A stretch of DNA of 64,000 bases. Source: Rhodospirillaceae bacterium. Lineage in GTDB: Bacteria; Pseudomonadota; Alphaproteobacteria; UBA7985. Positions 21,262 through 64,000 of this stretch are shown here, piece after piece (within the stretch, counting starts at the first letter, position 1; every line of letters starts with the position of its first letter). The notes beneath the pieces are model-generated. The model made no database searches, was not told the origin of the DNA, and was given only the letters and a program-made list of their open reading frames with translations. The stretch spans positions 75,554-139,553 of the forward strand of contig JAYQIC010000007.1 of the NCBI GenBank assembly GCA_038141425.1. The letters are read 5' to 3'. A program made the position numbers and the translations under genes.

Positions 21262-21299
21262 GAAGGGTCCGAACCTCAACAGGTTTCGGGCCCTTTTTT
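21262..21299 (+). terminator. Orphan rho-independent terminator on the + strand with no upstream + strand CDS (candidate 3' end of a small RNA)
   Basis: GAAGGGTCCGAACC-TCAACA-GGTTTCGGGCCCTTTTTT; sits in a 480-bp AT-rich intergenic region. Confidence 0.45.
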
Positions 21300-21356
21300 C
21301 TGCCCGCTGCCGGCCGGTCGATCGAGGGTGCGCGGCAAGTCCTGCAACGGGATCGA

Positions 21357-49382: not shown

Positions 49383-50438
49383 CTAAGCTGCCTTTCGTGC
49401 AGGGTTGGTGGTCCGGCGTGCGTCCGGATGTTGGTTCAAAGTCTCGATGGATTTGGTCTGGCCAGAGGGGGCTTTCTGGAGTTCGGCTTCGATCCCCGGG
49501 ATGAGCCGCACGGCAAAACCCGCAGCGCGCGCGGCGCGAAGTTCAGCATAGGCCAGGTGACCGCTGCCGCTGACCAGCCGCGTGACGCTGTGCCCGGCAC
49601 GCAGATGGTCGAGCAGGGCTGTGGTCGCGCCCAGACCATGGGTTTCGATGATCGCTTCCCGGCGTGCCAGTTCCAGCACGGCGCGCGACACCAGCGGTTC
49701 GGAGAGCACGACATCAGCGTTGTCCAGCGCCTGATGCCCGGCCACAGTCAGCAGGTCGGCCTGCCCGGCACCAGTTCCGACGATGGTCAGGCGCCCGGCT
49801 GATGGTGCGGTTCCCACCGCGTGGCTCGACAGCAGGTCCTGGCCCAATGCCTCGATATCGGCGGCTTTCGTCAGGCGCTGTTCCCGCGCGCCACTGAAAA
49901 AGCGCTGCCAGAAGTCGCGCCGGGCACCGCCCGCGGGCAGGCTATGGGCCACGGCTTCCCGCAGCGAAGCCGCGATCCGGGCGATGAGACCCAGCCCCGG
50001 CTCGAGCATAAATTCGACCTGCGCTTTAATCCGTCGCGCGAGAACCGGCGCCGTGCCCTCGGTGCCAATCGCCACCACCACCGGGTCGCGATCGACCAGC
50101 GCCGGGGTGGAAAAATCAGAAACGGCGGGCTGATCGGCAGCACAGACGAGGATACCGGCAGCGCGAAGACGGGTCGCCAGTCGGGCATCCAGCGCCTCGT
50201 CGCCGGTCGCGGCGTAGGCAAAGGCGATGTTTTCAGGCAGGTCGAAGGTCAGTGGGTTGGTCCGCACACGGATCACGCCATCAAGCGCCAGCAACGGCGC
50301 TTCGAAGTGCGGGGCGATGGCGATTACCGTGGCTTCGGTTTTAAGCAGCAGGCGCAGCTTAGCCGCAGCCTCTTCGCCGCCACCGAAGACGATGACGCTG
50401 CGATCAGCAACGTCGATGAACAGGGGGAAGGCTTTCAT
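49383..50438 (-). CDS. cysG: Siroheme synthase-like protein: precorrin-2 dehydrogenase/ferrochelatase domain plus a C-terminally truncated uroporphyrinogen-III methyltransferase domain
   Basis: N-terminus FPLFIDVADRSVIVFGGGEEAAAKL (NAD fold); middle GRLTIVGTGAGQADLLT resembles the SUMT N-terminus, but the protein ends after about 150 aa of that domain. Confidence 0.65.
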   Translation of the reverse strand: MKAFPLFIDVADRSVIVFGGGEEAAAKLRLLLKTEATVIAIAPHFEAPLLALDGVIRVRTNPLTFDLPENIAFAYAATGDEALDARLATRLRAAGILVCAADQPAVSDFSTPALVDRDPVVVAIGTEGTAPVLARRIKAQVEFMLEPGLGLIARIAASLREAVAHSLPAGGARRDFWQRFFSGAREQRLTKAADIEALGQDLLSSHAVGTAPSAGRLTIVGTGAGQADLLTVAGHQALDNADVVLSEPLVSRAVLELARREAIIETHGLGATTALLDHLRAGHSVTRLVSGSGHLAYAELRAARAAGFAVRLIPGIEAELQKAPSGQTKSIETLNQHPDARRTTNPARKAA

Positions 50439-50520
50439 GGCTCACTCCGTGGAACGCCCATCAAATGTGCCAATTTCCCAAATAATCACAATATGGGAGA
50501 AAAAATAAGCCTGAAATAAC

Positions 50521-50570
50521 AAAAGGCGCGAGATATCACAGCACGGCGTGCTGTTTCGCGCCTTTTCGTA
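50521..50570 (-). terminator. Rho-independent terminator downstream of the HU gene
   Basis: AAAAGGCGCGAGA...nested palindrome ACAGCACGGCGTGCTGT...TTCGCGCCTTTT. Confidence 0.55.
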
Positions 50571-50636
50571 GGAATATGTTCTGCCAGATGGCGACCGAGC
50601 TGAATTCAGTTTCGGTCGCGATCAGCAGATGGGGCC

Positions 50637-50924
50637 TTAGGAACCAGCCAGAGCGTTCTTCAGAGCGGTCGAAGCCTTGAAGGAAGCAACGCGCTTCTCA
50701 GGGATCTGGATCGTCGCGCCCGTCGACGGGTTGCGGCCGGTGCGTGCTGCCCGTACTTCGGACTTGATGGTCGCGAAGGAGCCCATAGCGACATCGTTAC
50801 CGGCAACCAGTTCCCCCTGAACGGAAGACAGGTAAGCTTCGATGGTAGACTTGGCCTGAGCTTCGGACACGCCGGCACTCTTTGCTGCTGCGGAAACCAG
50901 AGCGGTATGTGCGGTTTTGGACAT
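50637..50924 (-). CDS. hupB: HU family DNA-binding protein
   Basis: 95 aa; MSKTAHTALVSA...GSFATIKSEVRAARTGRNPSTGATIQIPEKRVASFKASTALK HU signature arm. Confidence 0.9.
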   Translation of the reverse strand: MSKTAHTALVSAAAKSAGVSEAQAKSTIEAYLSSVQGELVAGNDVAMGSFATIKSEVRAARTGRNPSTGATIQIPEKRVASFKASTALKNALAGS

Positions 50925-51202
50925 CGTTGTTACTCCCTTGTGTCATGGCGCATTCGCACCATCCCGATTGAGCCTTTGGTTTACTCAATCTTGGCCCACA
51001 ACAAAAGAGATTATGCGCATTTTCAGCCCTAAACAGACTGATTCGTGGGGAAAATGGGCAATTTCAACCGCCTTGAGCAGCGTTGAACAATTCAAATGGC
51101 AGGTTTTAGGGCTGAAAATGGCCCGAAGCGCCCAGCCCGAACCCCCTACAGATCGGGGGGTTTCGGGCCGGACTTCAGACCAAAACAGCCTTGGGAGGGC
51201 GT

Positions 51203-51493
51203 TTAGGACCCCGGTGTGAAGGCTTCGTCACCCATGATGGTGATGACGTTGGACTCCAGGATAGCGCCTGCAGCAGCGCGCTTGGCCCGCAGTTCTTCGT
51301 GGGTCGCAAAGGCCTTCATGGCTTCCGGGGAGTCGAATTCGATGATCACCATCATCTTGTTGTCGTCTTCCTTGGTGGCACCGGCAAAGACGAGACGCGC
51401 ACCGAGGGCATTTAGTTCAGCCTCGTTTTCGAAGTACATTTCCTTCCACGGCTTGAAACCGCGTTCCAGATCCTGAGTTAGTTGGACGAACAT
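51203..51493 (-). CDS. Small conserved hypothetical protein
   Basis: MFVQLTQDLERGFKPWKEMYFENEAELNALGARLVFAGATKEDDNKMMVIIEFDSPEAMKAF; about 97 aa, soluble. Confidence 0.4.
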   Translation of the reverse strand: MFVQLTQDLERGFKPWKEMYFENEAELNALGARLVFAGATKEDDNKMMVIIEFDSPEAMKAFATHEELRAKRAAAGAILESNVITIMGDEAFTPGS

Positions 51494-51719
51494 GCGTTGA
51501 TCTCCCTGTGAAGTCGCTGAGTTGCCTATTTTTCTAGTGAAACAAGTGTGATCGCATTGCTGATGCATCGCAATCGCTTTGGACCGGTCGGGAACGAGCA
51601 ATTTAAGCAGTTTTGACTTAGGCGTATCAGCGATGGCCCTTGCACTGGCGGCTGGACCCTTTGGATTTGCCCCGTACTATGGCTCACCATTGATCGTGAA
51701 GCACAGGGGACGAACCATG

Positions 51720-52169
51720 ACCGACGCCATCACCATTCGCCCACTCCGCCGCGAGGACCACGCCGACTGGTCCCGGCTCTGGACCGGCTACCTCGAGTTC
51801 TATGAAACGCAGCTGAGCGAAGAGGTATATCGGGTCTCGTTCGAGCGATTGCTGATGGATGATCCACACGAGTACAGCGGTTTGATCGCCGAGGTCGACG
51901 GCCAGCCCGTCGGGCTGGCCCATTTCCTGTTTCACCGGTCCATGTGGACCGTCGAGAACACCTGCTATCTAATGGATCTGTTCGTTGATCCGACCATCCG
52001 GGGGAAGGGCGTTGGCCGCGCGCTGATCGAGGCGGTGCATGCGGCGGCCAAGGCGGCTGGGGTCACCGAGACCTACTGGCAGACCCAGGAGTTCAACTAC
52101 AAGGGCCGCATGCTCTATGATCAGGTGGCCAGCCGGACGCCCTTCATCATCTATTCCAAGGAGGACTGA
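51720..52169 (+). CDS. GNAT family N-acetyltransferase
   Basis: LFVDPTIRGKGVGRALIEAVHAAAKAAG acetyl-CoA binding motif. Confidence 0.7.
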   Translation, partial: TDAITIRPLRREDHADWSRLWTGYLEFYETQLSEEVYRVSFERLLMDDPHEYSGLIAEVDGQPVGLAHFLFHRSMWTVENTCYLMDLFVDPTIRGKGVGRALIEAVHAAAKAAGVTETYWQTQEFNYKGRMLYDQVASRTPFIIYSKED

Positions 52170-52211
52170 GCCGGCGCGTCGTCCCCGCCGGCCCTGACAC
52201 AGGACCCGGCC

Positions 52212-53264
52212 CTAGCGGTCGGCGCAGAGCATCCGGGTCGCACGCTGGTCGAGACCGGGCAATGCGCCATGACCCCCGAAGCGGTATTCGAAATACTCGT
52301 TGGTGATCATGTCTGAACGGGGCTTGAGCGCCCGGTCCAGCGCCCGTGCATTGCCAACCGGAACGATGGTGTCGCGCACGCCATGGTGGGTCTGCACCCG
52401 CTCGGGCAACAGGTCGGCAAAGTGCAGCGCAGAGCCGCCCAGCAGCTGCATGCGCAGCTCTTCAAAGCTCGTCTGGCCGTCGTAGTAGGCCTCGACGAAG
52501 GTCCCGGGAAAGCCGTAGTAGGGGCTGACTTCCTCACCGCGCAGGTGCCCGATGACGCCGTTGATCATGTCGGGATAGGTGAGCACGTCGGTCGGGCCAA
52601 AGACGTTGACCACCCGATCAACCCGGGGGTCGCGGATCCCCAGCATCAGGGAAACACCGCCACCGCGCGAGTAGCCCCATGCGCTGACATCGTTGTCCTG
52701 CGCGCCGGGGTAGTTGTCCACGACGCCGGAGATCAGTGCCATGACGTCGATGACGTCACGGTTGATCAGGCTCTTTTCGCCTGTGCTCTCGTAGGTGTCG
52801 TCGAAGATCCGCAGTTCTTCGCCGCGGAAGCTGGGGACAACAACGAAGAAGTCGGCGAGGCAGTCATCGACAAGTTCGAAGGCCCATTCGGCTTCGATGC
52901 CGTCCCAACCGCCGTGGTTGAGCACGAGGATCGGCGCGGGCTGCCCGGGGCGGTAGTCCTGTGGCGTGCGAACGGCAGAGTAGTGGCGGTTGCCCTCCAC
53001 CCGCTGGCTGACAACGTCGAGCCGGTAGCCTTCGTCTTCGAAGCTGTCTTCAACCTTCCACCGTGTGGCGGGCGCCACCGGCTCTGCCCAGGCGTCGAGG
53101 ACAGCGCTTCGCTCAGCGGCGGTCGGCGGCGCGAAAATGCGCTGCAGGGTTTCAGCCTGAGAGGCGCCGGCGAGGCCCAGTGCGACCGTGGTGGCGCAGA
53201 GGGCCGCCGCCGCCGCGGTGGCCTTTGCCTTGGACTTCCAGCCAGACAGGCCGCCTGCAATCAA
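52212..53264 (-). CDS. Secreted alpha/beta hydrolase (esterase/peptidase S9-like)
   Basis: Signal peptide; GYSRGGG nucleophile elbow (GxSxG); about 350 aa. Confidence 0.6.
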   Translation of the reverse strand: MIAGGLSGWKSKAKATAAAAALCATTVALGLAGASQAETLQRIFAPPTAAERSAVLDAWAEPVAPATRWKVEDSFEDEGYRLDVVSQRVEGNRHYSAVRTPQDYRPGQPAPILVLNHGGWDGIEAEWAFELVDDCLADFFVVVPSFRGEELRIFDDTYESTGEKSLINRDVIDVMALISGVVDNYPGAQDNDVSAWGYSRGGGVSLMLGIRDPRVDRVVNVFGPTDVLTYPDMINGVIGHLRGEEVSPYYGFPGTFVEAYYDGQTSFEELRMQLLGGSALHFADLLPERVQTHHGVRDTIVPVGNARALDRALKPRSDMITNEYFEYRFGGHGALPGLDQRATRMLCADR

Positions 53265-53440
53265 GGAGCGGGAGGGGAGAGCGGAGGGGTGGAGGCGTGG
53301 TGATAGGGCATGGTGCTGCTCGGTTCCGGGTTGTGGTGGTTCGTGTCATTACCCCACCTTACACAACGCAGAACCGAGAGCGTTTACAAGCCTTAGCCAG
53401 AATCTCACCTTTTTATGTCAAAGGTGAATGATTTTTTCGC

Positions 53441-53868
53441 CTACTTCGCGTTCAGCTTGGAGAGACAGGCGATCAAGGTGATCAGCGGGATCAGCATGAA
53501 CAGGGCGGCGAAGATGTTGAATCCGTTGAAACCGTTGTACCCGAAGGTGCTGGCCATACCCCCGCAATGAACTGCGTGCCCATCATGGCGACGACTGCGA
53601 TGGCGCCGATGCGGGCCCGAGCCGGGTTTGCGGACAACAGGCCGATGAAAAAGATGATCGCGCCCATGCCGAGCATGTGGGCGAACCACACCACTTCGAC
53701 GACCGCCGCGATGTTCAGCTCACGCTCGGTCAGCTCGCCCGTCCAGAAGGTGCTGGCGGAGCTTACTGCCTGACCGCTAATCAGAGCGATCCCGGTGAAG
53801 ACAACCAGAAAGGCGCCCATGACCATGAGCCAGAGCCGTGTATTCAGAATTGTACCGAGAAGTTGCAT
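53441..53868 (-). CDS. Hypothetical membrane protein; frameshift near 53570
   Basis: Hydrophobic ORFs 53491-53904 and 53441-53689 are collinear. Confidence 0.35.
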
Positions 53869-54087
53869 CGGAGTTCCCCTTGAGTGATGCCAGAATGGTT
53901 GCATACGAATTCACTAATTTAGCAACGCTGTCTATTTAAATGGAACTAGAGAGACCCTTTTCTCACGAAAGGCGCCAGTCTATCGGCGGATCTTTCGTTG
54001 TCGGCGTCGGATTTTAGTGCACTTTGTTCCGGGAGCTTTGCCACCGAGCCGCTCGGTCTGGCCGACCAACAGGATTGGATTTTTTCT

Positions 54088-55221
54088 ATGCGTTCTTCAC
54101 AGCTGTTCTCGCCGATCACCCTGGGCGGGATCGAACTGAGCAACCGGATCGTGGTGGCACCCATGTGCCAGTACAGTGCCGACGACGGCAGCGCCACCGA
54201 CTGGCATCTCATGCACCTGGGTCAGTTTGCGGTCAGCGGCGTGGGCCTGATCTTCGTGGAAGCCACCGGCGTCAGCCCGGAAGCGCGGATTTCTCCCGGC
54301 TGTCTGGGGCTGTGGTCCGATGAGAATCAGGAGGCATTGGCTCGTGTGGTCGGGTTCTGCCGCGACTACGGTAACGCCACGATGGGCATTCAGCTGGCCC
54401 ACGCCGGGCGCAAGGCCTCGACCGATCTGCCCTGGTACGGCGGCGCGCCAATCCCTGCGGCTGACCCTCGGGGCTGGCAAACGGTTGCCCCGTCCTCGAC
54501 GCCCTACAACGATGCCTTTGAAACACCGACTGCGCTGGACGATGAGGGGCTGGCGAAGATCGTCGATGACTTTGTTGCCGCAGCCCGGCGGGCCGACGAA
54601 ATCGGCTTTGACGTGGTCGAAGTGCACATGGCCCACGGCTACCTGATGCACCAGTTCCTGTCGCCGTTGAGCAACCAGCGCAACGACGCTTACGGCGGTG
54701 CGCTGGAAGGGCGGATGCGGTTCCCGCTGGAGGTTTTCGCCGCCGTTCGTGCGGTCTGGCCCAAGACCAAGGCGCTGGGCGTCCGGATCTCCGCCACCGA
54801 CTGGGTCGAGGGCTCAAGCTGGACGGTCGAGGAAGCCAGCCGATTTACCGCTGCGCTCTATGCCGCCGGCGCTGACTTCATCGACGTTTCCAGCGGTGGC
54901 AACTCACCGGCGCAGCAGATCGAAGCCGGTCCGGGCTATCAGACCGGCTTTGCCGCAACCATAAGGCGCGAGGTCGGCATTCCGACCATGGCGGTTGGGC
55001 AGATCACGGAGCCACGGCAGGCCGAAGCCATCCTGCGCTCCGGTCAGGCGGATATGGTGGCGCTGGCGCGCGGTATGCTGATTAACCCGCGTTGGGCCTG
55101 GCATGCCGCAGAAGCGCTGGATGCCGAGGCGACCTTTGCCCCGCAATACATGCGTTCGAGCCGGGCGCTCCGCGGTGAACCAGTGCCGGGGAACCCGCCG
55201 GTGAAGGCGCGCAAGGACTGA
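54088..55221 (+). CDS. NADH:flavin oxidoreductase / Old Yellow Enzyme family (NemA-like)
   Basis: SPITLGGIELSNRIVVAPMCQYSA...HLMHLGQFAVSGVGLIFVEAT...IQLAHAGRKAS OYE motifs. Confidence 0.85.
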   Translation: MRSSQLFSPITLGGIELSNRIVVAPMCQYSADDGSATDWHLMHLGQFAVSGVGLIFVEATGVSPEARISPGCLGLWSDENQEALARVVGFCRDYGNATMGIQLAHAGRKASTDLPWYGGAPIPAADPRGWQTVAPSSTPYNDAFETPTALDDEGLAKIVDDFVAAARRADEIGFDVVEVHMAHGYLMHQFLSPLSNQRNDAYGGALEGRMRFPLEVFAAVRAVWPKTKALGVRISATDWVEGSSWTVEEASRFTAALYAAGADFIDVSSGGNSPAQQIEAGPGYQTGFAATIRREVGIPTMAVGQITEPRQAEAILRSGQADMVALARGMLINPRWAWHAAEALDAEATFAPQYMRSSRALRGEPVPGNPPVKARKD

Positions 55222-55228
55222 CGCGCTA

Positions 55229-55644
55229 CTAGTCGTCGCGGCCGGGCTCGTCTGGATTGCTGGAAAACAGTGCGATTTTGTTTCCTTGCGGGTCGCGCAG
55301 ATAGCCGACGTAGAACCGCGGGCCGTAGGCTGCCCGGAACCCCGGCGCGCCCTCATCAGTGCCGCCCGCGGCCAGTGCGGCGGCGTGCAGCGCCCTGACC
55401 TGCGCCTGATTGCTGGCTTCGAAGGCCACCATGCTGCCGTTACCCGCCGACGCCGGCCGGCCGTCGAAGGGTGGTTTGACGTAGAATTCGGGCAGGGCAG
55501 GGCAGTCGGGAGATGTTTGGATCAGGGCGAAGCTGAGCCCCTCCTCACTCTCTTCAAGGCCGTAGCCCAGGGCGGGCAGGAAGCGGCATAGAAACGCTTG
55601 GCGCGGGCGATGTCGGACGCGCCGACAGACAGGTAAGCGACCAT
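55229..55644 (-). CDS. VOC (glyoxalase/bleomycin-resistance) family protein; frameshift near 55580
   Basis: MVAYLSVGASDIARAKRFY... N-terminus recovered from the adjacent frame; C-terminus GPRFYVGYLRDPQGNKIALF. Confidence 0.55.
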
Positions 55645-55654
55645 CTGGATTTCT

Positions 55655-57056
55655 CTATTGGATGCTGTCGACGATCATATTGGCCATCTGGCGCAGTGGC
55701 TCGACATTGTAGGTGAAAGCGGGCGACGTGTTTACCTCGTTGATGACGAAATCCGGATCCTCCACCAGGAGATCTTCAGAGATAAAATCGATGCTTCCCT
55801 CTTGTATGTCGAAAATCTTCATAATCTTTTGAACAACCTGACGAACCTGCTCAGGCAAATCATCTTCGGTGAAGTAATAGTTCGTATGGCCAAAGGTCCC
55901 ATTTTGCTGATGTATGAAAAACACCTGATCTTTTTCGAGGACTGAGTCATACGTGAGTCCGGCCCGCTCCAGATTTGCATTGAAAACTGGCGATCGCATC
56001 ATGTTTTTGAAAATGGGCCTCGGTTTGGTGAAGTTCTCACCCGGCTCGGTATCCTCGCAAAATGTTTTCAGCAATGAGCGGATGTTGCTCGAACCATCGC
56101 CAAACAGTCTGGGTCGGTACTTCTGATGAATGAAAATGATTTCACCATCAAACAGGCAAACTCGATAGCTTTCGCCAAAAAAAATGCTTTTCAACAATGA
56201 AATCGTATTCGTTTAAATTGATTCGGTCCAAAATTGATCGTAAATAAGACTCGTCCATAATATTTGCATAGATAGCAATATTACCATTAGTATTATTTGG
56301 CTTCAGGACAATTGGGTATGAATTTTCAGCTGCAAAATCCAGAATATCTTGCGGGCTGTATACAAACTGAGGGTCAGTGGTTGGAATGTTAGCGTCCCTG
56401 AGGATGTCACACGTCAGCTTTTTGCTCATCAGCAGCTTGACCGTCAGTTCACCGGTCGTTTCCGATAGACTGCCCCGGAACAACCGAAATTTTTCACCCT
56501 TGCCGACCATGAACGTACCGCTCTTGTCCACCTCCGTGACGGGCGCATCTCGATCGTGGATGAACCTGAGGATGATACGCTGGTTCAGGCCTTTCAGGCC
56601 GTGTTGTTTGAGGGCTTCCTGAAACTGGCCAACCTGTTCGAGGAAACGGGCTTGATCGAACTGTTTCGTGGGGGCGAGGAGCCCGTCTTCGAGCAAGTGC
56701 TTAAAGAGCCGCGCCGGGAGCCATCGGGGACCAACCCGCGTGGGTAGGTAGTATTGCCCATTGAGGTCGCTGCCGCGTTCCGGCTGAAAGACACCAACCT
56801 GAAACACGGGCCACTTGGCGGCGAGGCATGCGCGGTAGACCCACCCCAGCACCTGTCGGGCGCGTCCATCCAGCGGGCTCGTCTGTGGCGTCTCGAATTC
56901 AGGCTCTTCCCATGCGCCAAGGGCCCGGTCGAGAGCCTTGACCGCGTCTTTGTTAAAGGCAGCGGAGGTTGCGCCCTCGACGATGAAGCCGACGGCTGCG
57001 CCTTTGAGGCCATTCTCTGGTTCGGCTACGTAGCTAAGCTTTGATACCAATGTCAC
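55655..57056 (-). CDS. ATP-grasp ligase (cyanophycin-synthetase/RimK-like ATP-grasp domain) with an unrelated N-terminal domain; frameshift near 56150-56200. The ATP-grasp half is in AT-rich DNA.
   Basis: C-terminal blocks ...YPIVLKPNNTNGNIAIYANI..., GDGSSNIRSLLKTF, DSVLEKDQVFFIHQQNGTFG, SIDFISEDLLVEDPDFVINEVNTSPAF match the ATP-grasp B and C subdomains. Pieces in ORFs 56148-57056 and 55655-56197. Confidence 0.6.
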
Positions 57057-57322
57057 GCTGGGCTCGCCTTTTCAGGTTTCCGGGATCAGGCATCCTAAAA
57101 AGGTGCGCTGTCTTAGATCGTGAGGAAATCCATGCGTCTGTAAAGGGCCAGCATGTTGAGGCGAGGTGAAACACCCTAAAAATGCAGTGGTTTTATATCG
57201 GTGAGCCTGCACGGATGACTTGGGTGCAAAACGACCCGATCAGCAGTTCAGGGCACTCTATCCGCTGCGGGCAGCAGTGAGGGCCGTCGCATTCGATGGC
57301 CCTCGCTGGTCTGTCTCAGATT

Positions 57323-57949
57323 TCAGAACTGGAACACTGCAACCTGAACGTCGACGCAGGGCGGGTTCGGGAAGTCTGCCTCGCAGCCCCCGTTCATCGT
57401 GTTCAGCATATCGTTGAGGATGGCCGGATCAGCCGGTCCGTGATCGCGAACCACGAGGTGGATCTCTGCCGTGCCGGGCAGGACGATGCCGGGGCCGCCC
57501 ATGGCTTCGGAAACGTCACCGATCGGTAGGTGGGCATTAAAGACGATGTTGCCGGACTGGTCGGCGACCATCCCATCGGCCCGAAGGACGGAAATACCGA
57601 CGGCTTCCCACTGCGGCAGGTTCACGGGCGGCAGGCCGTCGTCAGTGATGATCACTGCGCCGTCAGCGTCGGTCAGCAGCACGTCATCGGTGCCGCACGC
57701 ACCGTCGGTGCAGTTTTCCGGATAGTTATAGACGGTCCACCACAGGGTATAGGCGTTGTTCGGAACCAGGTCGGTTGTCGAGACCCGTGTCGCGAGGCCG
57801 TAATCCATCCGATCGAGGCTGGCTTCAGAATTGGCGACGGCACCGAAGTCGGGCAACGAAATCATTGTGGTGTTCTGTGTTTCGGCCTGAGCGATCGTGC
57901 CGAAGGCGAAGAGGACGAGGGTTGATAGCAAGGCGATGGCGGTCTTCAT
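57323..57949 (-). CDS. Secreted hypothetical protein (signal peptide, about 190 aa mature, 6 Cys)
   Basis: MKTAIALLSTLVLFAFGTIAQA signal peptide; no recognised domain; lies in a lower-GC region next to tRNA-Trp. Confidence 0.4.
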   Translation of the reverse strand: MKTAIALLSTLVLFAFGTIAQAETQNTTMISLPDFGAVANSEASLDRMDYGLATRVSTTDLVPNNAYTLWWTVYNYPENCTDGACGTDDVLLTDADGAVIITDDGLPPVNLPQWEAVGISVLRADGMVADQSGNIVFNAHLPIGDVSEAMGGPGIVLPGTAEIHLVVRDHGPADPAILNDMLNTMNGGCEADFPNPPCVDVQVAVFQF

Positions 57950-58321
57950 GGTCAGGATCCTTAACTCGGTAAAAAAGTTCAAACACACTAAAACTGTCAA
58001 TATTTCTTTCAGATACGGGCTGTGTCAATCGGTAACCAATGGTGTTGAAGGTGGCGAGCCGCCCCAAAGCCCCGAATACCGGGGGCAAAGCACGGCACTC
58101 AAATTAGTGGAATTCCATTCACAAACCGTGCCGTCCGCTAGGCTATACCTCCCTAGATCCGTGGAGGAAGCTGCAACGGCTCGTAACCTCTGCTCGCGCC
58201 TTTGGCCCTTGCCGCTAAGCTATTTTACTGCCGGTGCCTTCAGCGGCGTCTGGATGCGGCTACTTTAACCAGAAAATGGGTTTTGTCAGGACCGGTAACC
58301 GGGGAAGGGGGAGAGGGATGA

Positions 58322-58394
58322 TGGACCATACAGGATTCGAACCTGTGGCCTTCCGATTGGAATCGGACGCTCTATCCTGCTGAGCTAATGGCCC
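58322..58394 (-). tRNA. tRNA-Trp (anticodon CCA) with an apparent 6-nt anticodon loop (TTCCAA; expected TTCCAAA). No encoded CCA.
   Basis: Reverse complement GGGCCATTAGCTCAGCAGGATAGAGCGTCCGATTCCAATCGGAAGGCCACAGGTTCGAATCCTGTATGGTCCA folds as a cloverleaf with 7/4/5/5-bp stems and a GGTTCGAATCC T-arm. Confidence 0.8.
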
Positions 58395-58490
58395 TTCGTG
58401 GGTCCGCAGACCGAGGCGCATCATAGTCGGTAAATCGGTGCCGTCCACGATGGCATTTCACAAAGTCTTTCCTCGGCAAACCCACCTTGA

Positions 58491-59443
58491 CTACCAGGCC
58501 TTTGCAGCCTCCACCGCTGCAGTCAGGGCTTCAATAATCGCGGGTTCGGCCGCGGAATGCCCCGCCTGCTGCACCACCTGCAGGTCGAGCTGCGGCCAAC
58601 GCTGCTGCAGTTCATAGGCGCCAGAGAGCGGACAGATCATGTCGAACCGACCGTGGACCAGCACGCCCGGAAAATCGAAACCACCCTCGGGAACGCAGGA
58701 CAGCGCACCGTGCTCGGGGTCGTCGAAAAAGCAGTCGTGGGCCAGGTAGTGTGCCTCACAGCGGGCCATGCGCCACGCCGCTTCCGAGGCGCCGAAAGAC
58801 CCGCCCCCGGCCAACGAGGAACAGGCGGACTCATAGCGGGTCCAGGCTTCCCCGCCGATAGCCGCACCCGACGGTCACGGTCGTCCAGCCGTTCGCGGTA
58901 GCCCGCAAGCGGGTCCCCGCGCCGATCCTCGGGCAGGGCCTCCAGCCATCGGCGGTGGGCGTCGGGGTAGAACCGGCTCAGCCCGTCGAGGAACCATTCG
59001 CGGTCTGCCCGCCGACCGAGGAACAACCCGCGCAGGACGAGCCCGCGCACGGTGTCGGGGTGCTGCCCCGCATAGGCCAGTGCCAGCGTCGCGCCCCAGG
59101 AGCCACCAAACACCAACCACTGGGCGACGCCGAGATGGCGCCGCAGCGCATCGGAATCCGCGACGAGGTGCCAGGTGGTGTTGGCTCGCAGGCCGCCACC
59201 GGGGGTCGAGCGCCCTGCGCCGCGCTGGTCAAACTGGATCACGCGATAGTGGCTGAGGTCGAAGAAGCGCCGGGTCCAGGCGTTGGCGCCGGCCCCGGGG
59301 CCCCCGTGCAGGCAGACCACAGGCACGCCCTCGGGGTTGCCCGCCTGTTCGTAGTACAGGCTGTGCCCATCCGAGACCGGGAGATAACCGCGGTCGTAGG
59401 CCTGTTCGCCCTGTCCCCGCTTTGAGTGTTCGACCTTATCCAT
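58491..59443 (-). CDS. pip: Prolyl aminopeptidase (proline iminopeptidase); frameshift near 58815-58880
   Basis: N-terminus MDKVEHSKRGQGEQAYDRGYLPVSDGHSLYYEQAGNPEGVPVVCLHGGPGAG, GGSWGATLAL nucleophile, C-terminus HGRFDMICPL...AGHSAAEP in ORF 58491-58814. Confidence 0.8.
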
Positions 59444-59494
59444 GCTGCACCCTATATCTGTTCCATACAGCAAGTTCTCAAGGTGAAAGCGACC

Positions 59495-60849
59495 ATGACC
59501 CAGGCAAATCCCGCACCCGCCCTCGACCTCGAAGACCGGGTTGGGGCCCTGATCGACCGCGCGCGCGCTGCCGGCGCCGATGCTGCAGACGCTTCGGTGT
59601 TCGGCAGTGACCAGATTTCGGTGGGCCGCCGGATGGGGCAGATCGAGACGCTCGAGCGGGCGGACAGTGCCGGGGTCGACCTGCGTGTGTTCGTCGACGG
59701 CCAGATCGCGCAGGTAAGCGGCAGTGATCTGTCCGACCAGGGCCTGATACGCCTTGCCGAGCGAGCTGTGGGCATGGCCCGCCACAGCCCCGCAGATCCC
59801 TTCGCCAAGCTCGCTGAGCCGGGGCAGGTGGCGACCGAGTGGCCGACGTTGGAAACCGCAGACCCGGTCGAACCGTCCACCGACGGCCTGCTGGCTATGG
59901 CTGAGGCTATGGAAGACGCCATGCTGTCGGTCGAGGGCGTGACCAACTCCGGCGGGGTTTCGGCTGGCTGGACCAAATCTTCGCTTGTTATGGCAACGAC
60001 CAACGGATTCGTCGGATCGGTGCAGGCGACTCGTTTCGGGATATCCGGCAGCGCCATCGCCGGCAGCGGTGAGGCGCAGAAGCGCGACTTCGACTACGAC
60101 CTCGCCGTCTTCGCCGAAGACCTCGGCGATCCGGCTGCCGTGGGGCGGGAGGCCGGACAACGGGCGGTCAGTCAGCTCGGGGCACGCCCGGGTGCGACGG
60201 CCAAAGTGCCGGTGATTTTCGAGCCCCGGGTTGCTGTGCGCATGCTCGGGCTGCTGACCGGTGCGATCAACGGCGAGTCCGTGGTGCGCGGCACCAGTCT
60301 GCTCGCTGATCACGTCGGCGAGCTGGTGATTTCGCCCGACCTCTCGGTGCACGAAGACCCGTTCAAGGCGCGTGGGCAGGGCAGCCGCCCGTTCGATGGT
60401 GAGGGCCTGCCGGTCCAGCCGCGCGCGATTTTCGAAAACGGTGTGCTCCAGACCCATCTGCACAATCTTGCGACCGCCGCGCAGGCCGGTGTCGAGCCCA
60501 CAGGCCACGCCAGCCGTGCCGGGGCGTCAATCGGGGTCGGCCACGCCAATCTGTGGCTCAGCCCGGGATCGGTGTCGGTCGAGGATATGCTGGCAGCAGC
60601 GGGTGAGGCCTTCTACGTCACCTCGCTGATGGGGCAGGGCGCGAATATGATCACCGGAGACTACAGCCAGGGCGCGACCGGCTTCTGGGTCCGCGATGGC
60701 CAGCTTGCTGAACCGGTGGAGAGCATGACGCTGGGGGCCGGCTGCAGGATATGTGGCGTTCGATGTCGGCGGCTGATGATCTGACTTTCTTTGGTGGCAT
60801 GGGCACGCCGACGGTGCAGATGGATGGTCTGACCGTGGCCGGCGCCTGA
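59495..60849 (+). CDS. pmbA: TldD/PmbA family metalloprotease (PmbA/TldE-like); frameshift at a GGGGG run near 60745
   Basis: PmbA_TldD domain; corrected C-terminus LQDMWRSMSAADDLTFFGGMGTPTVQMDGLTVAGA is canonical. Confidence 0.8.
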
Positions 60850-60910
60850 GGCTGCGCATGCCGGGCGGCGTGATGGAGGATCAGGCCGTGAGGCGCGCAG
60901 TGGGGTCCGC

Positions 60911-62198
60911 TTGCTGACCCTGCTGTCCATGCTGTCTGTTTTGTTGGCGCCGCTGCTGGTGCTGGGACTGCGCTTGCGTGGGGAACCGGCTGCGCGGACT
61001 GATGAACGGCTCGCCCGGCGCTCTCCGGCAAAGATGGAGCGAGCGAAGAACACCAAAGCGACCGATGCCCGCGAAGTGCTGTGGTTCCATGGGGCATCTG
61101 TTGGTGAAGTCCGGGCGCTGCTGCCGCTTGTTCTTCACTATGCAGACCGGTTTCAAGCTGGAGCAGGCGTCCTGCTAACGGTGCAGAGCGCACAGGGTTA
61201 CGCGGTCGCAGCGCAGGCGCTCGAGGCTTGCCCGCAGGCGGCAGTCGCCATGGCGCCCATGGATCATCCCGGGGTTATGACGCGGTTCTGTCGGCTTTAT
61301 CGGCTGCGCGGGCTGGTGCTCTACGAGAATGAAATCTGGCCCTGCTGGCTGGCCGCAACGCGGATGAGGGGCGTTCCAGTGGTCCTGCTCGATGCCTCGT
61401 TGTCGGCGCCCAGCCTGGGGTTCTGGCGGCGTTGGCCGGGGCTCGCGGCGTCGGTCGGGGCAGCGCTGTCGCGGGTGACAGCTGCGGACGCCGGGCAGAC
61501 ATCGGCCCTGCAAGCGCTGGGCTGGGGGCCGGTGCGGAAGGCGTTGCCGCTGAAGCTGGTTGGCTCGGCGCTGCCGGTTGATCCGGCGGAACTGGCGCGC
61601 TGGCAGCGCTGGCGCCGGAAGGATGCGCCACTGCTGGTCTTTGCCAACGTCCACCCTGGTGAAATCCGGGCCGTGGCGGACATGATCGCGGCCTGGATGG
61701 TGCGGGGGCGGGGGGCGGACAAGGCAGGGCCACCGCGTAAAGACGGGGATCGGGCTGAGGTGCAGATCATTGTCGCACCCCGACATCCGGAGAAGCTGGC
61801 GCATTTCGAGCAGGTCCTCGGTGACGAAGGGCCCGGGTTGGCATACTGGACCGGATTTGGGACGCTGGGTACGCTCTACGCGCTGGGCGGAACGGTGGTG
61901 GTCGGCGGCGGTTTCGACCCGCGGGTCGGCTCGCACAACCCGATGGAAGCGCTCCGGGCGGGCTGTCGTCACCGTTTGCGGGCCGCACGCCGGAAAGCAG
62001 GCGACGTTGATAGCGTTGCTTGAAGCCGAAGGGCTGCTTGCGCGCTGGTCCGATCTGGTTTCGCCAGAGGGCCGGAGCAACGGCTCTGGTACGGCTGATG
62101 CCGGGTCGGAAACGCTCGACGCTCTGTCGAGAAAGGCGGAAGCAACAGCGCTTGCAGCGATCGAGGAGGCTGTTTTCGGGACGAAACCCGATGCCTGA
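60911..62198 (+). CDS. waaA: 3-deoxy-D-manno-octulosonic acid (Kdo) transferase; frameshift near 61960
   Basis: LWFHGASVGEVRALLPL motif; C-terminal continuation in ORF 61770-62198 (VVTVCGPHAGKQATLIALLEAEGLL). Confidence 0.8.
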
Positions 62199-62199
62199 G

Positions 62200-62700
62200 A
62201 TTTGAGACCGGAACGCCGCGTGGCTGGTCTTTTTGACGTTTATCGCTCAACAGGGCGGAGTTTATCCGGAGCCTGTCGAAGGACCGTTGAGCACCTTTCT
62301 CTCTTTACGCTCAACACGGCTGCGTGATCGACCCGACCTTGTCTCGACCGCTTCGCGGTCTTCGCCAAGGCGTCGCGCATTTAACTTTTGCGCTCAAAAC
62401 GCTACGCTGTGAGCGCGTTGGAGATCATTGATGGAACGACGCTCAAAGTGCCGCATGTTGAGTGTCAGAGGAAAGAAGTTGCGCCGACTTGTCCCCGACC
62501 GCGCTTCGCGCGGCGGGGCCAAGCGTCGCGCAACTCCATAGAAAAATGACGTCAGGCCGGGCGAAGCGCGGCCTGTCCGTTTGACTGCGCGGGGAGATTT
62601 GTAAGCCGCGAAGCGGCGTCGAATCGAGCCCGCCACCCTACGGTGTTTGTTAAAAGTGATCGATCTGGGAGCGAGCAAGCCCGGAGAACCCACCGCTGTC
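62200..62700. repeat. Intergenic repeat region C: inverted copy of the about 160-bp composite element from region B, plus the 47-nt block shared with region A
   Basis: 62333-62379 identical to 32414-32460; 62478-62636 is the reverse-complement homolog of 35449-35598; several CGCTCAAA-N11-TTGAG palindromes. Confidence 0.6.
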
Positions 62701-64000
62701 TCAGAGTAGTGAGCCCTGATCTTCGTCCACCTCGCGAGGGGGTCGCTTTGACCGACCTGCAGTCCCGGTAGACGATGTCGTCGTCTTGGGTGGTTTTACC
62801 CCCCTCGACGCCTCTGTTTCGCCGGCAATCACGTCAATCGGGCCATCGATGAAGTGCAGCCGCAGCCGGTCACCGTCTGCAACGCCTCCGGCACGTGGCA
62901 CGACCGCTCCATCCTCGGCGCTGACCCAGACGTAGCCCTGTTCCAGAAGCCGGTCCCGGCTCGTTGCAAAGGAGTCCAGCAACCGCTGAACGTTACTGAG
63001 CGCCTGCTGGTGCTGGTCCAGGCGCCGCGCGGTTGCCTGCTGCATGCGGTCACCAAAGCGCTGAGCAGCGAACGTCCCCGCGCGCGAGCGTGCGGCCTGC
63101 CCCGCCGCGGACCCAAGCCGATCGCTCAGGCTGCGCGCCTGTTCGCCCATGCGCTGCAGTCGTTCCCGTGGGTGACGCACTTTGGCAGCGACAGTGTCGA
63201 GCTGGCTCTTCTGCCCCGGATTGCCGCCTGCAGTCCCCGGTCGAGCCGCTGTTCGAGCACGTCGAGGGCCTGTCGACGCTCCTGCAGCACCCGGTTGGGA
63301 TCGACCAGCCCGCGCGCCAGCCCGGCCAGCTCGGTCCTCGCCTGCTGTGCCTTGCGCTGCAGCCCACGGCCGATGCGCGCACCAAATTCCTCCACCCCGA
63401 GCAGCAGGTCAGCCCGCACCGGGACCGCCATTTCTGCAGCCCCGGTGGGCGTCGGCGCGCGGCGGTCGGCGACAAAGTCGATCAGTGTCGTGTCGGTCTC
63501 GTGTCCGACGGCTGAAATCACCGGGATACGGCTGGCTGCCACCGCCCGCACCACGGCCTCTTCGTTAAAGCCCCACAGGTCTTCCAGCGAACCCCCGCCC
63601 CGGCCCACGATCAGAACGTCCGGCCGCGGCACGTCGCCTCCGGGTTCAATGGCGTTGAAACCCGCAATCGCGGCCGCAACGTCCGGCGCTGCCCGCTCCC
63701 CCTGCACCGAGACCGGCCACAGGAGTACGTGCCGGGGAAAGCGGTCCGCAACCCGGTGCAGAATATCGCGGATCACCGCGCCGGTGGGTGAGGTCACCAC
63801 CCCGATCACCTGCGGCAGAAACGGCAGGGGCTGCTTTCGTCCAGCCTCGAAAAGGCCCTCGGCCATCAGCCGCTTACGCCGGTCCTCGAGCAGCTTCAGC
63901 AGCGCGCCTTCGCCCGCCAGCTCCATCTGCTCGATCACCACCTGATACTTCGATCCGCCGGGGAAGGTGGTCAGCTTGCCGGTGACAATGACCTCCATGC
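62701..64000 (-). CDS. xseA: Exodeoxyribonuclease VII large subunit, 5' end outside the window; frameshift near 63150-63180
   Basis: ORF 63126-63998 ([25 protein letters not shown]...[58 protein letters not shown]) and ORF 62701-63180 are collinear with XseA. Confidence 0.8.

What the first reader, a model, noticed from the sequence alone, without database searches (positions are those of the whole stretch)
55650..58394. Low-GC islet at the 3' side of tRNA-Trp with a compositionally chimeric ATP-grasp ligase and a secreted Cys-containing protein
From about 55650 to about 56450 the DNA is conspicuously AT-rich (runs such as ATAATATTTGCATAGATAGCAATATTACCATTAGTATTATTTGG) against a roughly 65% GC background. 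Moderately reduced GC continues to the tRNA-Trp gene, whose 3' end points into this segment, the classic position of integrated islands. The islet encodes an ATP-grasp ligase whose ATP-grasp half is AT-rich while its N-terminal unknown-function domain (about 220 aa) is GC-rich, suggesting a domain acquired or recombined from a foreign source. It also encodes a 209-aa secreted protein with six cysteines and no recognisable domain. ATP-grasp ligases of the cyanophycin-synthetase/RimK-like type make peptide or isopeptide bonds (peptide modification, small-molecule-peptide conjugates), so this could be a small horizontally acquired peptide-ligation module.
Basis: partly seen in the sequence, partly recalled or inferred. 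Interest (0 to 1): 0.6.

Follow-up and report, generated by a model that had tools for sequence, protein, structure and literature searches.

The report
Mosaic cyanophycin-synthetase-like ligase gene, AT-rich patch
The AT-rich spot is real and is the back 60% of one gene for an uncharacterised ATP-dependent peptide-bond-forming enzyme that looks stitched together from two different relatives, but the neighbouring tRNA is tRNA-Arg, not tRNA-Trp. The "secreted partner" is not linked to it, and the break in the gene is probably a sequencing error.

Summary
The GC dip is confirmed. It reaches 0.36-0.39 at about 56000-56450 against a window mean of 0.633, roughly 6 SD below it, and is the deepest dip in the window.

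It lies inside one 466-codon gene on the minus strand (55655-57056). In this assembly the gene is split by one extra T in a T-run (56177-56184). Relatives at 95-97% protein identity have T7 and an intact ORF.

The protein is a stand-alone cyanophycin-synthetase-like N+G (ATP-grasp) module with no M domain. It belongs to a small uncharacterised family, seen here mostly in metagenome contigs and alphaproteobacterial MAGs.

The gene is a mosaic. Residues 1-200 behave as family type A. Residues 201-466, the AT-rich part, behave as type B.

The downstream VOC gene is 66% identical to a VOC gene in a type-A gene cluster elsewhere.

The tRNA is tRNA-Arg(CCU) with one anticodon base missing here, not tRNA-Trp. 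This tRNA is an integration hot spot in related genomes. The window itself has no att repeat and no integrase. The same genes, with the same composition, occur in all close Geminicoccus relatives.

The 208-aa secreted protein has normal GC and four Cys in its mature part. It is not linked to the ligase in other genomes.

Several neighbouring conserved genes also carry window-specific 1-nt indels, so assembly errors are likely.

The parts
55655..57056 (-). Single gene for a 466-aa stand-alone cyanophycin-synthetase-like N+G (ATP-grasp) ligase. In this assembly it is split into ORFs 56148-57056 (302 aa) and 55655-56197 (180 aa).
   Evidence: ORFs. The intact 466-aa orthologues P0001/L001 and L005 are 97% and 95% identical at protein level. 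NCBIfam matches cyanophycin synthetase model positions 140-468 of 862 at E 4e-39. The AF2 model has pLDDT 89, and the Foldseek top hits are CphA2/CphA1 over about 500 columns.
56177..56184 (-). T8 homopolymer (codons 290-291) that causes the frameshift. Relatives have T7, which is in frame.
   Evidence: The window has +1 nt here. L001, L005 and L008 have T7. L002-L004 have a 1-nt shorter, interrupted run plus a stop at codon 273.
55650..56450 (.). AT-rich patch (GC 0.36-0.46) covering roughly codons 200-466 of the ligase gene. The core is at codons 251-300 (the G-lid module), with GC 0.31-0.33 and GC3 0.24-0.32.
   Evidence: The same dip is present in L005.
56457..57056 (-). GC-normal 5' part of the ligase gene (codons 1-200). 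It encodes the CphA-type N domain and the start of G-core, and is of family type A.
   Evidence: Over residues 1-200, identity is 36% on average to type A (type A to type A is also 36%) and 29% to type B. NJ bootstrap support for grouping with type B is 2%.
55229..55644 (-). VOC/glyoxalase-family gene starting 10 nt after the ligase stop codon. It is broken in this assembly by a 1-nt deletion at 55583.
   Evidence: The deletion relative to L001, L002 and L005. It is 66% identical to the VOC protein of the type-A cluster in L017.
57323..57949 (-). Gene for a 208-aa secreted protein of unknown function. It has a signal peptide, two conserved Cys pairs and an AEIHLVVRDHGP motif.
   Evidence: The AF2 model has pLDDT 90, with only weak similarity to Cu,Zn-SOD-like beta-sandwiches. 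Composition is ordinary, GC3 0.77.
58322..58394 (-). tRNA-Arg(CCU) gene with one anticodon base missing in this assembly (6-nt loop TTCCAA).
   Evidence: Rfam tRNA model scores 62 bits. ARAGORN reports 'tRNA-???'. Relatives carry TTCCTAA and are called tRNA-Arg(cct).

Best explanation
What it is. The AT-rich stretch is the 3' ~60% of one gene for a stand-alone cyanophycin-synthetase-like ligase. The protein has the CphA N domain plus the ATP-grasp G domain and no Mur-ligase M domain.

The gene is a mosaic. Its 5' 200 codons belong to one subtype (A) of a small family that has no functional annotation in the sources searched. The rest belongs to another subtype (B), and its very low GC suggests it came by recombination from a lower-GC donor. 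The A-type part and the adjacent VOC gene look like the remains of an A-type gene cluster (ligase, AMP-binding enzyme, VOC). In that cluster, the 3' part of the ligase gene and, presumably, the AMP-binding gene would have been replaced.

Timing. The event is older than the split of the Geminicoccus lineages sampled here. It is therefore not a recent island insertion.

Predicted mechanism (inferred, not shown). The enzyme binds ATP-Mg between G-core and G-lid. It phosphorylates a substrate carboxylate to an acyl-phosphate. An amine, such as an amino acid or peptide, then attacks the acyl-phosphate to give an amide bond. The product is not cyanophycin.

The break. The frameshift in the window's copy is most probably an assembly indel error.
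For: One gene:
- Orthologues at 95-97% protein identity are intact 466-aa ORFs: P0001/L001, and L005, which is 94.5% identical to L001 at DNA level.

CphA-like N+G:
- NCBIfam cyanophycin synthetase, E 4e-39, model positions 140-468.
- Best PDB sequence hits are CphA1 and CphA2.
- The AF2 model has pLDDT 89.3. Foldseek top hits are 7ta5, 7wae and 7lg5, with alignments of 495-515 columns.
- Several 600-650-aa relatives align from residue 1-16 onward.

Catalytic core kept:
- TeCphA1 K261, E300, R309, D431, E450 and N452 map to K252, E289, R298, D423, E440 and N442 (residue roles from PMC9427784).

Family:
- About 14 representative clusters of 447-489 aa align over their full length at 27-34% identity.

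Mosaic:
- N part: query-to-A 36.1%, equal to A-to-A 35.9%. Query-to-B 28.9%, close to A-to-B 28.2%.
- C part: query-to-A 22.5%, close to A-to-B 23.3%. Query-to-B 31.8%, close to A-to-A 32.2%.
- Bootstrap support for query+B is 2% in the N part and 87% in the C part.

Composition:
- GC3 is 0.66-0.72 in codons 1-200, 0.32 in codons 251-300, and 0.54-0.58 after that. Neighbouring genes have GC3 0.74-0.81.

VOC link:
- L017 carries, in order, an A-type ligase, an AMP-binding gene and a VOC gene. Its VOC is 66% identical to the Geminicoccus VOC (L002 copy).

Age and selection:
- The same dip is in L005, and nucleotide identity there is unremarkable at 94%.
- Synonymous changes exceed non-synonymous ones in both halves between L001 and L005: 21:10 and 26:14.

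Error reading:
- Window-specific 1-nt indels also break pip, pmbA, VOC, a 142-aa membrane protein and the tRNA anticodon.
- The Illumina contig L002 has a unique coding indel only in its already dead ligase gene.
Against: - The donor of the AT-rich part was not found. The nearest type-B proteins are only 32% identical and their genes have GC of 0.54-0.56. Plasmid and phage collections hold nothing closer than 25%.
- Family genes elsewhere also have lower GC than their neighbours, and a milder N-to-C GC decline. Part of the gradient could therefore be a family trait.
- The sequence distances are large and near saturation, and the trees are simple NJ trees.
- The last 16 codons have high GC3 (0.82) although they look B-type.
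- The T-run is also mutated in the L002-L004 lineage, and L008 has a +2 frameshift. A real frameshift in the window's strain therefore cannot be excluded.
- No substrate or product is known for any family member.
Confidence: 0.6

Rival explanations
1. The whole 55650-58320 segment is a small genomic island integrated at the 3' end of the tRNA. It carries a two-gene peptide-ligation module of a ligase plus a secreted substrate or partner.
For: The tRNA's 3' end faces the segment. In relatives the site is a real hot spot:
- L010 has a tyrosine integrase island that interrupts the tRNA.
- L005 has an AT-rich insert with a 45-nt repeat of a tRNA 3' half.
- L009, L010 and L011 all differ downstream of the tRNA.
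- Another family member, P0007-like, sits downstream of the same tRNA in L011, L012 and L016.
Against: - The window has no repeat of the tRNA 3' end and no integrase homologue.
- The secreted-protein gene has host-like composition, GC3 0.77.
- The segment is conserved in place in all close relatives, including L008 with pip 83% identical.
- L005 keeps the ligase but has lost most of the secreted-protein gene.
- Homologues of each protein elsewhere never have the other as a neighbour.
- The GC-normal N part and the VOC gene match a cluster (L017) whose flanking genes are entirely different from this locus. Whether a tRNA gene lies nearby there was not checked.
Confidence: 0.12
2. There was no foreign DNA. 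The AT-rich patch reflects local constraints or a mutational bias of this gene family, whose ATP-grasp halves are always less GC-rich. On this view the apparent mosaic is an artefact of unequal evolutionary rates in the two domains.
For: - In P0006's gene, GC falls from 0.64 to 0.51 along the gene.
- The family genes in L007 and L017 have GC 0.55-0.56, against 0.61-0.65 around them.
- The FYMINK amino-acid share rises from 18.5% to 34% in the C part, so part of the dip is encoded at protein level.
Against: - The dip here (GC 0.31-0.39, GC3 0.24-0.32) is far deeper than in any homologue examined.
- The identity matrices show the N part behaving exactly like a type-A member and the C part exactly like a type-B member. 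Rate variation alone does not predict this.
- The query and type B share specific motifs that type A lacks: EKHxxGESYRV, SIDFIxxDL, DPDFxIxExN, and the C-terminal helix.
Confidence: 0.13
3. The frameshift is real. In this strain the ligase gene is a pseudogene, or is switched on and off by slippage in the T-run. It could also be decoded by programmed or transcriptional slippage.
For: - The same T-run carries a different lesion (-1) in L002-L004, together with a stop codon, in three independent Illumina assemblies.
- L008 and P0004 carry other frameshifts in the AT-rich part.
- The gene is therefore dispensable and its homopolymers are mutable.
Against: - The window also has private 1-nt indels in pip, pmbA, VOC, a membrane-protein gene and the tRNA-Arg anticodon. 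This pattern is not expected in a living cell.
- Four of the seven private short indels in the three-way comparison hit genes or the tRNA, so they show no avoidance of coding sequence.
- Intact relatives with T7 show that no slippage is needed for expression.
Confidence: 0.25

Closest known systems
Cyanophycin synthetase 1 (CphA1; e.g. PDB 7lg5, 7wac)
   Same: Collinear N domain and ATP-grasp G domain, with G-core, G-lid and G-omega. The best sequence and structure matches are to it. The ATP/Mg and acyl-phosphate residues are conserved (K252, E289, R298, D423, E440, N442).
   Different: No M (MurE-like) domain, so no Arg-adding site. It is 466 aa against about 870-900 aa. Residues that hold the cyanophycin primer and the incoming Asp are not kept: E215 to K207, H267 to G258, R458 to T448. 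The NCBIfam score is 134 bits against a cut-off of 850.
Cyanophycin synthetase 2 (CphA2; PDB 7ta5, 8fxh)
   Same: It is the top Foldseek hit (7ta5, E 3e-22). Like CphA2, only the G-domain active site would be functional (background from PMC10273328, abstract only).
   Different: CphA2 proteins are about 600-650 aa and keep a reduced M domain. This protein ends right after the G domain. Sequence identity is only 16-18% in the structural alignment.
Uncharacterised 447-489-aa N+G ligase family (P0005-P0018), seen here in metagenome contigs and alphaproteobacterial MAGs
   Same: Full-length alignment at 27-34% identity with the same two-domain architecture. Some members also sit near tRNA-Arg(CCU) (L011, L012, L016) or next to a closely related VOC gene (L017).
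   Different: Other members occur as tandem paralogues. L007 has three. L006 has two, one of which lacks catalytic residues. They may also sit with a RimK-like ligase, an AMP-binding enzyme and a methyltransferase. The Geminicoccus gene is single and is an A/B mosaic with an extreme GC dip.
tRNA-gene-associated genomic islands
   Same: Position at the 3' side of a tRNA gene that is demonstrably used for integration in related genomes.
   Different: The window has no att repeat and no integrase. Only 0.8 kb is compositionally deviant, and the content is conserved among close relatives.

Membership tests
Cyanophycin synthetase CphA1 | Three-domain architecture N + G (ATP-grasp) + M (MurE-like), about 870-900 aa | tested here: not met
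   466 aa. The match covers only model positions 140-468 of 862, scoring 134 bits against a curated cut-off of 850. PDB matches end at about residue 470 of CphA1.
Cyanophycin synthetase CphA1 | G-domain ATP/Mg2+ and acyl-phosphate residues (TeCphA1 K261, E300, R309, D431, E450, N452) | tested here: met
   They map to K252, E289, R298, D423, E440 and N442. All are invariant or nearly invariant in the family alignment.
Cyanophycin synthetase CphA1 | Residues that bind the cyanophycin primer and substrate Asp (E215, H267, R458; also R323, N394, G456) | tested here: not met
   E215 maps to K207, H267 to G258, R458 to T448, G456 to A446. R323 maps to K312 and N394 to N385, which are similar or kept (residue roles from PMC9427784).
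Cyanophycin synthetase CphA1 | Makes multi-L-arginyl-poly-L-aspartate | not testable with these tools
   Needs enzyme assays.
Cyanophycin synthetase 2 (CphA2) | N + G + reduced M domain, about 600-650 aa | tested here: not met
   The protein ends 13 residues after the last G-domain helix begins, and no M remnant is present. The next gene (VOC) starts 10 nt after the stop codon.
ATP-grasp superfamily | ATP-grasp fold with a conserved Lys, a Glu, and an Asp/Glu/Asn Mg2+ triad | tested here: met
   Confident AF2 model. Foldseek hits include CphA, GshAB, Ddl, PsnB and LysX/ArgX. Residues as listed above.
tRNA-integrated genomic island | Lies at the 3' side of a tRNA gene | tested here: met
   tRNA at 58322-58394 on the minus strand; the segment lies at lower coordinates.
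tRNA-integrated genomic island | Direct repeat of the tRNA 3' end (att) at the far border | tested here: not met
   There is no second copy of the 26-nt tRNA 3' end with up to 3 mismatches in the 64 kb. The 16-nt core has only a chance-level 3-mismatch hit at 30427. The repeat search over 54500-59000 gave only short chance-level pairs.
tRNA-integrated genomic island | Integrase or other mobility gene | tested here: not met
   The segment has only the ligase and secreted-protein genes. tblastn with the L010 integrase finds nothing in the window.
tRNA-integrated genomic island | Variable presence among related genomes | tested here: inconclusive
   The content is the same in L001, L002 and L008 and mostly the same in L005, covering pip identities of 83% and above. 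It differs in L009, L010, L011 and L012, where pip is 71-74% identical and synteny downstream of the tRNA is lost altogether.
Programmed frameshift / transcriptional slippage gene | The frameshift site and the need to shift are conserved in orthologues | tested here: not met
   Orthologues L001, L005 and L008 have T7 and read through in frame.
RiPP ATP-grasp maturases (microviridin / GRASP-with-SPASM type) | Significant match to maturase models and an adjacent precursor peptide | tested here: not met
   Only marginal NCBIfam hits (E 0.0014-0.03, far below the cut-offs). Foldseek hits to PsnB and MdnC are much weaker than those to CphA. No precursor-like ORF was identified, but this was not searched exhaustively.

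The most novel reading that the evidence does not exclude
The stand-alone N+G cyanophycin-synthetase-like ligases may be a new ATP-grasp pathway. They occur singly here. Elsewhere they occur as tandem arrays that include catalytically dead paralogues, or with a RimK-like ligase, an AMP-binding enzyme, a VOC protein and a methyltransferase. Such a pathway could make an unknown oligo- or poly-amide, either a cyanophycin-like polymer or a small peptide natural product. On this reading, the Geminicoccus gene would be a natural, selected domain swap: an A-type N domain (polymer anchoring or oligomerisation) joined to a B-type catalytic core. That would show the modules are interchangeable.
Probability: 0.3. 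Interest if true: 0.65.

Novelty: new variant of a known kind. Interest (0 to 1): 0.4.

Why it matters
Cyanophycin synthetases are the only well-studied enzymes with this N+G design, and they attract interest as makers of biopolymers. A compact family that keeps the polymer-anchoring N domain and the ATP-grasp site but drops the second active site has not been described in the literature I could search. Such a family could make a different poly- or oligo-amide.

The Geminicoccus gene adds a clean natural example of intragenic mosaicism between two subtypes. The mosaic is visible both in composition and in phylogeny, and both halves appear to be under purifying selection.

On the practical side, the case shows how assembly indels can create a false tRNA-Trp and a false split gene.

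Tried and rejected
- I searched for att-like repeats of the tRNA 3' end and found none.
- I looked for a donor of the AT-rich half in plasmids and phages by tblastn. The hits were CphA or GshAB genes, one unannotated plasmid ORF and one unannotated phage contig, all at no more than 25% identity.
- The word-indexed protein search found only near-identical metagenome copies. The full HMMER search was needed to reach the family.
- Rfam found nothing but the tRNA in 50000-64000.
- Promoter and terminator scans gave nothing decisive.
- I tested the 'ligase + secreted protein module' idea through gene neighbourhoods of homologues of both proteins, and it failed.
- I considered that the odd tRNA might be a natural tRNA with Ala-like G3:U70 and a CCA anticodon or an unusual loop. 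I rejected this because relatives have a normal tRNA-Arg(CCU) (L002 differs from the window tRNA by the one missing base over its available part).
- I considered programmed frameshifting at the T-run and rejected it because orthologues are in frame.
- I considered recent transfer of the patch between Geminicoccus lineages. Nucleotide identity there (94%) is within the range of the flanks (82-96%).
- A first residue map with mafft --keeplength was mis-numbered and was redone.
- The literature searches found no paper on an M-less CphA-like family.
Full report
**1. Observation**

A sliding-window profile confirms a sharp GC dip. GC is 0.387 for 56000-56449, and the 300-nt minimum is 0.363 at 56051. 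The window mean is 0.633 with sd 0.046. Only one other, much milder, stretch (20851-21300) falls below mean minus 3 sd.

On the minus strand the region holds two overlapping ORFs in different frames, 56148-57056 (302 aa) and 55655-56197 (180 aa). It also holds a signal-peptide ORF (57323-57949 from its ATG, 208 aa) and a tRNA gene at 58322-58394.

The two ORFs join into one reading frame if one T is removed from a T8 run at 56177-56184. This gives ...IVEKHFFGESYRVCLFDGE..., a typical ATP-grasp motif.

**2. The tRNA is tRNA-Arg(CCU), not tRNA-Trp**

Rfam scores the gene as a good tRNA (62 bits). ARAGORN cannot name it because the anticodon loop has six bases, TTCCAA.

In metagenome contig L002 (96-97% identical DNA) the loop is TTCCTAA. 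ARAGORN calls tRNA-Arg(cct) at the same place in L008, L009, L011 and L012. In L005 the tRNA-Arg(cct) it calls is the second copy, inside the insert described in section 8.

**3. The assembly carries private single-base indels**

I aligned the window with L001, L002 and L005. Window-specific 1-nt indels fall at:
- 60736 (pmbA)
- 58851 (pip; it is an intact 328-aa ORF in L005 but split in the window)
- 58359 (the tRNA anticodon)
- 56184 (the ligase)
- 55583 (the VOC gene)
- 53564 (a 142-aa membrane protein)
- several intergenic sites

In the three-way region, four of the window's seven private short indels hit genes or the tRNA. The Illumina contig L002 has a private coding indel only in its ligase gene, which also carries a stop codon.

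Indels that do not avoid coding sequence, including a tRNA anticodon, are best explained as assembly errors. A truly decaying genome cannot be excluded without the reads.

**4. Organism and relatives**

The single hit in the species-representative genome collection is a MAG named Geminicoccus sp. SP156 (L005). It is 87-90% identical in DNA and has an intact 466-aa orthologue.

Metagenome copies:
- L001: 97% protein identity, intact, T7.
- L002-L004: a stop at codon 273 and a -1 shift in the same T-run, found in three independent assemblies.
- L008: pip 83% identical, same gene order, with a +2 frameshift at codon 418.

Between the two intact copies, synonymous differences exceed non-synonymous ones in both halves (21:10 and 26:14). 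The gene has therefore been under purifying selection, and it has been lost in at least one lineage.

**5. What the protein is**

- NCBIfam matches residues 137-463 to cyanophycin synthetase model positions 140-468 (E 4e-39). The score is far below the family cut-off because the M domain is missing.
- The best PDB sequence matches are CphA1 and CphA2.
- A full HMMER scan of 1.84 billion representatives finds about 14 clusters of 447-489 aa that align end to end at 27-34% identity. After those come longer CphA-like proteins, several of which align from residue 1-16 onward. The N-terminal region is therefore homologous to the CphA N domain.
- An AlphaFold model built on the family alignment is confident (pLDDT 89.3, pTM 0.83). 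Its best Foldseek matches are CphA2 7ta5 and CphA1 7wae, 7lg5 and 7lgm, with alignments of about 500 columns that cover essentially the whole protein.

I mapped the residues described for TeCphA1 (PMC9427784). The ATP/Mg2+ and acyl-phosphate residues are kept: K252, E289, R298, D423, E440 and N442. The residues that hold the cyanophycin primer and the incoming aspartate are not kept: E215 to K207, H267 to G258, R458 to T448.

So the protein should be an active carboxylate-amine ligase that works through an acyl-phosphate. It is not a cyanophycin synthetase. The chemistry is inferred from the fold and the conserved residues. The substrate is unknown.

**6. The gene is a mosaic**

Composition. 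GC3 by 50-codon blocks is 0.66-0.72 for codons 1-200, 0.54 for 201-250, 0.32 for 251-300 (the G-lid), and 0.54-0.58 up to codon 450. Neighbouring genes have GC3 of 0.74-0.81. The FYMINK amino-acid share rises from 18.5% to 34%. L005 shows the same profile.

Phylogeny. The family splits into a larger group (A) and a pair, P0006 and P0007 (B).

| Region | query-A | A-A | query-B | A-B | B-B |
|---|---|---|---|---|---|
| Residues 1-200 | 36.1% | 35.9% | 28.9% | 28.2% | 30.9% |
| Residues 201-466 | 22.5% | 32.2% | 31.8% | 23.3% | 41.2% |

NJ bootstrap support for query+B is 2% in the N part and 87% in the C part.

Motifs shared only with B include EKHxxGESYRV, SIDFIxxDL, DPDFxIxExN and the C-terminal helix.

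But the exchange is between two subtypes of one old two-domain family. It is not a fusion of an unknown domain with a foreign ATP-grasp domain.

**7. Gene context and a scenario**

The VOC gene starts 10 nt after the ligase stop codon.

In contig L017, a type-A ligase (P0010-like, the type closest to the query's N part) is preceded by a RimK-like ATP-grasp gene. It is followed by an AMP-binding enzyme, then a VOC protein 66% identical to the Geminicoccus VOC (L002 copy), then a methyltransferase.

The simplest reading is that Geminicoccus inherited or acquired an A-type cluster. A segment running from the middle of the ligase gene to just before VOC was then replaced by the 3' part of a B-like gene from a lower-GC source. 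This is inference.

The donor was not found. The nearest B proteins are 32% identical and come from genes with GC 0.54-0.56. Plasmid and phage collections hold nothing closer than 25%.

Family genes elsewhere are also somewhat GC-poor relative to their neighbours and show a mild N-to-C decline. Part of the gradient may therefore be a family trait. That is the main rival explanation.

**8. Is it a tRNA island?**

The site is a hot spot in the clade.
- In L010, the tRNA-Arg is cut right after the anticodon loop. It is followed by a tyrosine integrase (GC 0.46), a 1364-aa FG-GAP/cadherin protein and a DNA methylase.
- L009 encodes the identical pip protein but has different genes after an intact tRNA.
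- L011, L012 and L016 (pip 74% identical) carry, after the tRNA, a secreted 188-aa protein, an SAP-repeat protein and a weakly HprK-like 231-aa protein. A B-type ligase (P0007-like) follows, and all three contigs end just after it.
- L005 has the 5' half of the old tRNA followed by a 1.4-kb AT-rich insert. The insert carries a second, complete tRNA-Arg of the L009/L010 type, a 252-aa membrane ORF and a 45-nt repeat of that tRNA's 3' half. It replaces most of the secreted-protein gene.

In the window, however, there is no repeat of the tRNA 3' end and no integrase. The secreted-protein gene has ordinary composition. The arrangement is shared by all close relatives. DNA identity to L005 across the ligase gene (94%) is within the range of the flanks.

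The acquisition or recombination is therefore old relative to these lineages. The 'islet' has no recognisable borders.

**9. The secreted protein**

It has 43 homologues, none with a Pfam domain or a name. Conserved features are an AYTLW motif, two Cys pairs (C80/C85 and C189/C198), and AEIHLVVRDHGP with invariant H164 and H170.

The AF2 model (pLDDT 90) is a beta-sandwich. It has only weak similarity to periplasmic Cu,Zn-superoxide-dismutase-like folds (E 2e-3, TM 0.36-0.5).

Its homologues in long contigs (L013-L015) have no ATP-grasp neighbour, and ligase homologues have no such neighbour either. L005 shows that the ligase persists without it. The two genes are neighbours, not a module.

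**10. Comparison with what is known, and novelty**

The protein works like the G-domain site of cyanophycin synthetases. It fails the membership tests for CphA1 (no M domain, substrate residues not kept) and for CphA2 (no M remnant).

It belongs to an unnamed family. Sources annotate the members only as hypothetical proteins or with mixed automatic labels. I found no paper on them in the searchable library.

In other genomes, family members form tandem arrays: three paralogues in L007 and two in L006. Some paralogues lack the equivalents of R309, E450 and N452 and are probably inactive partners.

I rate this as a new variant of a known kind and of moderate interest. It combines a real, well-supported mosaic gene in an uncharacterised ligase family with several corrections: the tRNA identity, the split gene, the Cys count, and the module and island ideas.

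Noticed in passing
window 60736, 58851, 58359, 55583, 53564 (also 58052, 51163, 50533): Window-specific single-base indels break pmbA, pip, the tRNA-Arg anticodon, the VOC gene and a 142-aa membrane-protein gene. Relatives are intact at these positions. The assembly looks indel-error-prone, so gene calls elsewhere in this window should be treated with care.
   Followed up: partly
L005 3911-5377: In the Geminicoccus sp. SP156 MAG, the old tRNA-Arg is cut in the anticodon loop. It is followed by a 1.4-kb AT-rich insert carrying its own complete tRNA-Arg(CCT) of the L009/L010 type, with that lineage's upstream region. The insert also carries a 252-aa membrane ORF and a 45-nt repeat of the new tRNA's 3' half. 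It replaces most of the secreted-protein gene. It is either a remnant of an integrated element or a chimeric MAG contig.
   Followed up: partly
L010 11050-20951: A tRNA-Arg(CCU) is interrupted right after the anticodon loop. It is followed by a 408-aa tyrosine integrase (GC 0.46), a 1364-aa FG-GAP/cadherin-like protein, a 514-aa protein and a DNA methylase. L009 encodes the identical pip protein but lacks this island.
   Followed up: partly
L006 2583-3974; P0016, P0018: Some paralogues of the N+G ligase family lack the equivalents of CphA R309, E450 and N452. They sit in tandem with apparently active paralogues, so they may be pseudoenzyme partners.
   Followed up: partly
L017 7891-14727: Possible small biosynthetic cluster: a secreted 258-aa protein with an internal duplication, a RimK-like ATP-grasp (309 aa), a type-A N+G ligase (467 aa), an AMP-binding enzyme (597 aa), a VOC protein (142 aa) and a SAM methyltransferase (279 aa).
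   Followed up: no
L007 253-4576: Three tandem paralogues (464, 447 and 461 aa) of the N+G ligase family, with GC 0.55 next to an mnmA-like gene fragment with GC 0.65.
   Followed up: no
L012 2881-3345 (-) and 3461-4156 (+): A 154-aa protein made largely of (SAP)n repeats. Next to it is a 231-aa protein with a weak match to HprK-related kinase A (E 0.0013). Both lie just upstream of the B-type ligase.
   Followed up: no
window 20851-21300: The only other stretch of the window with GC below mean minus 3 sd (0.509). Not examined.
   Followed up: no
window 57323-57949 (-): The secreted 208-aa protein belongs to an unnamed family of about 43 clusters with invariant His164 and His170 and two conserved Cys pairs. 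It has a weak Cu,Zn-SOD-like beta-sandwich fold, so it may be a periplasmic metal-binding protein.
   Followed up: partly
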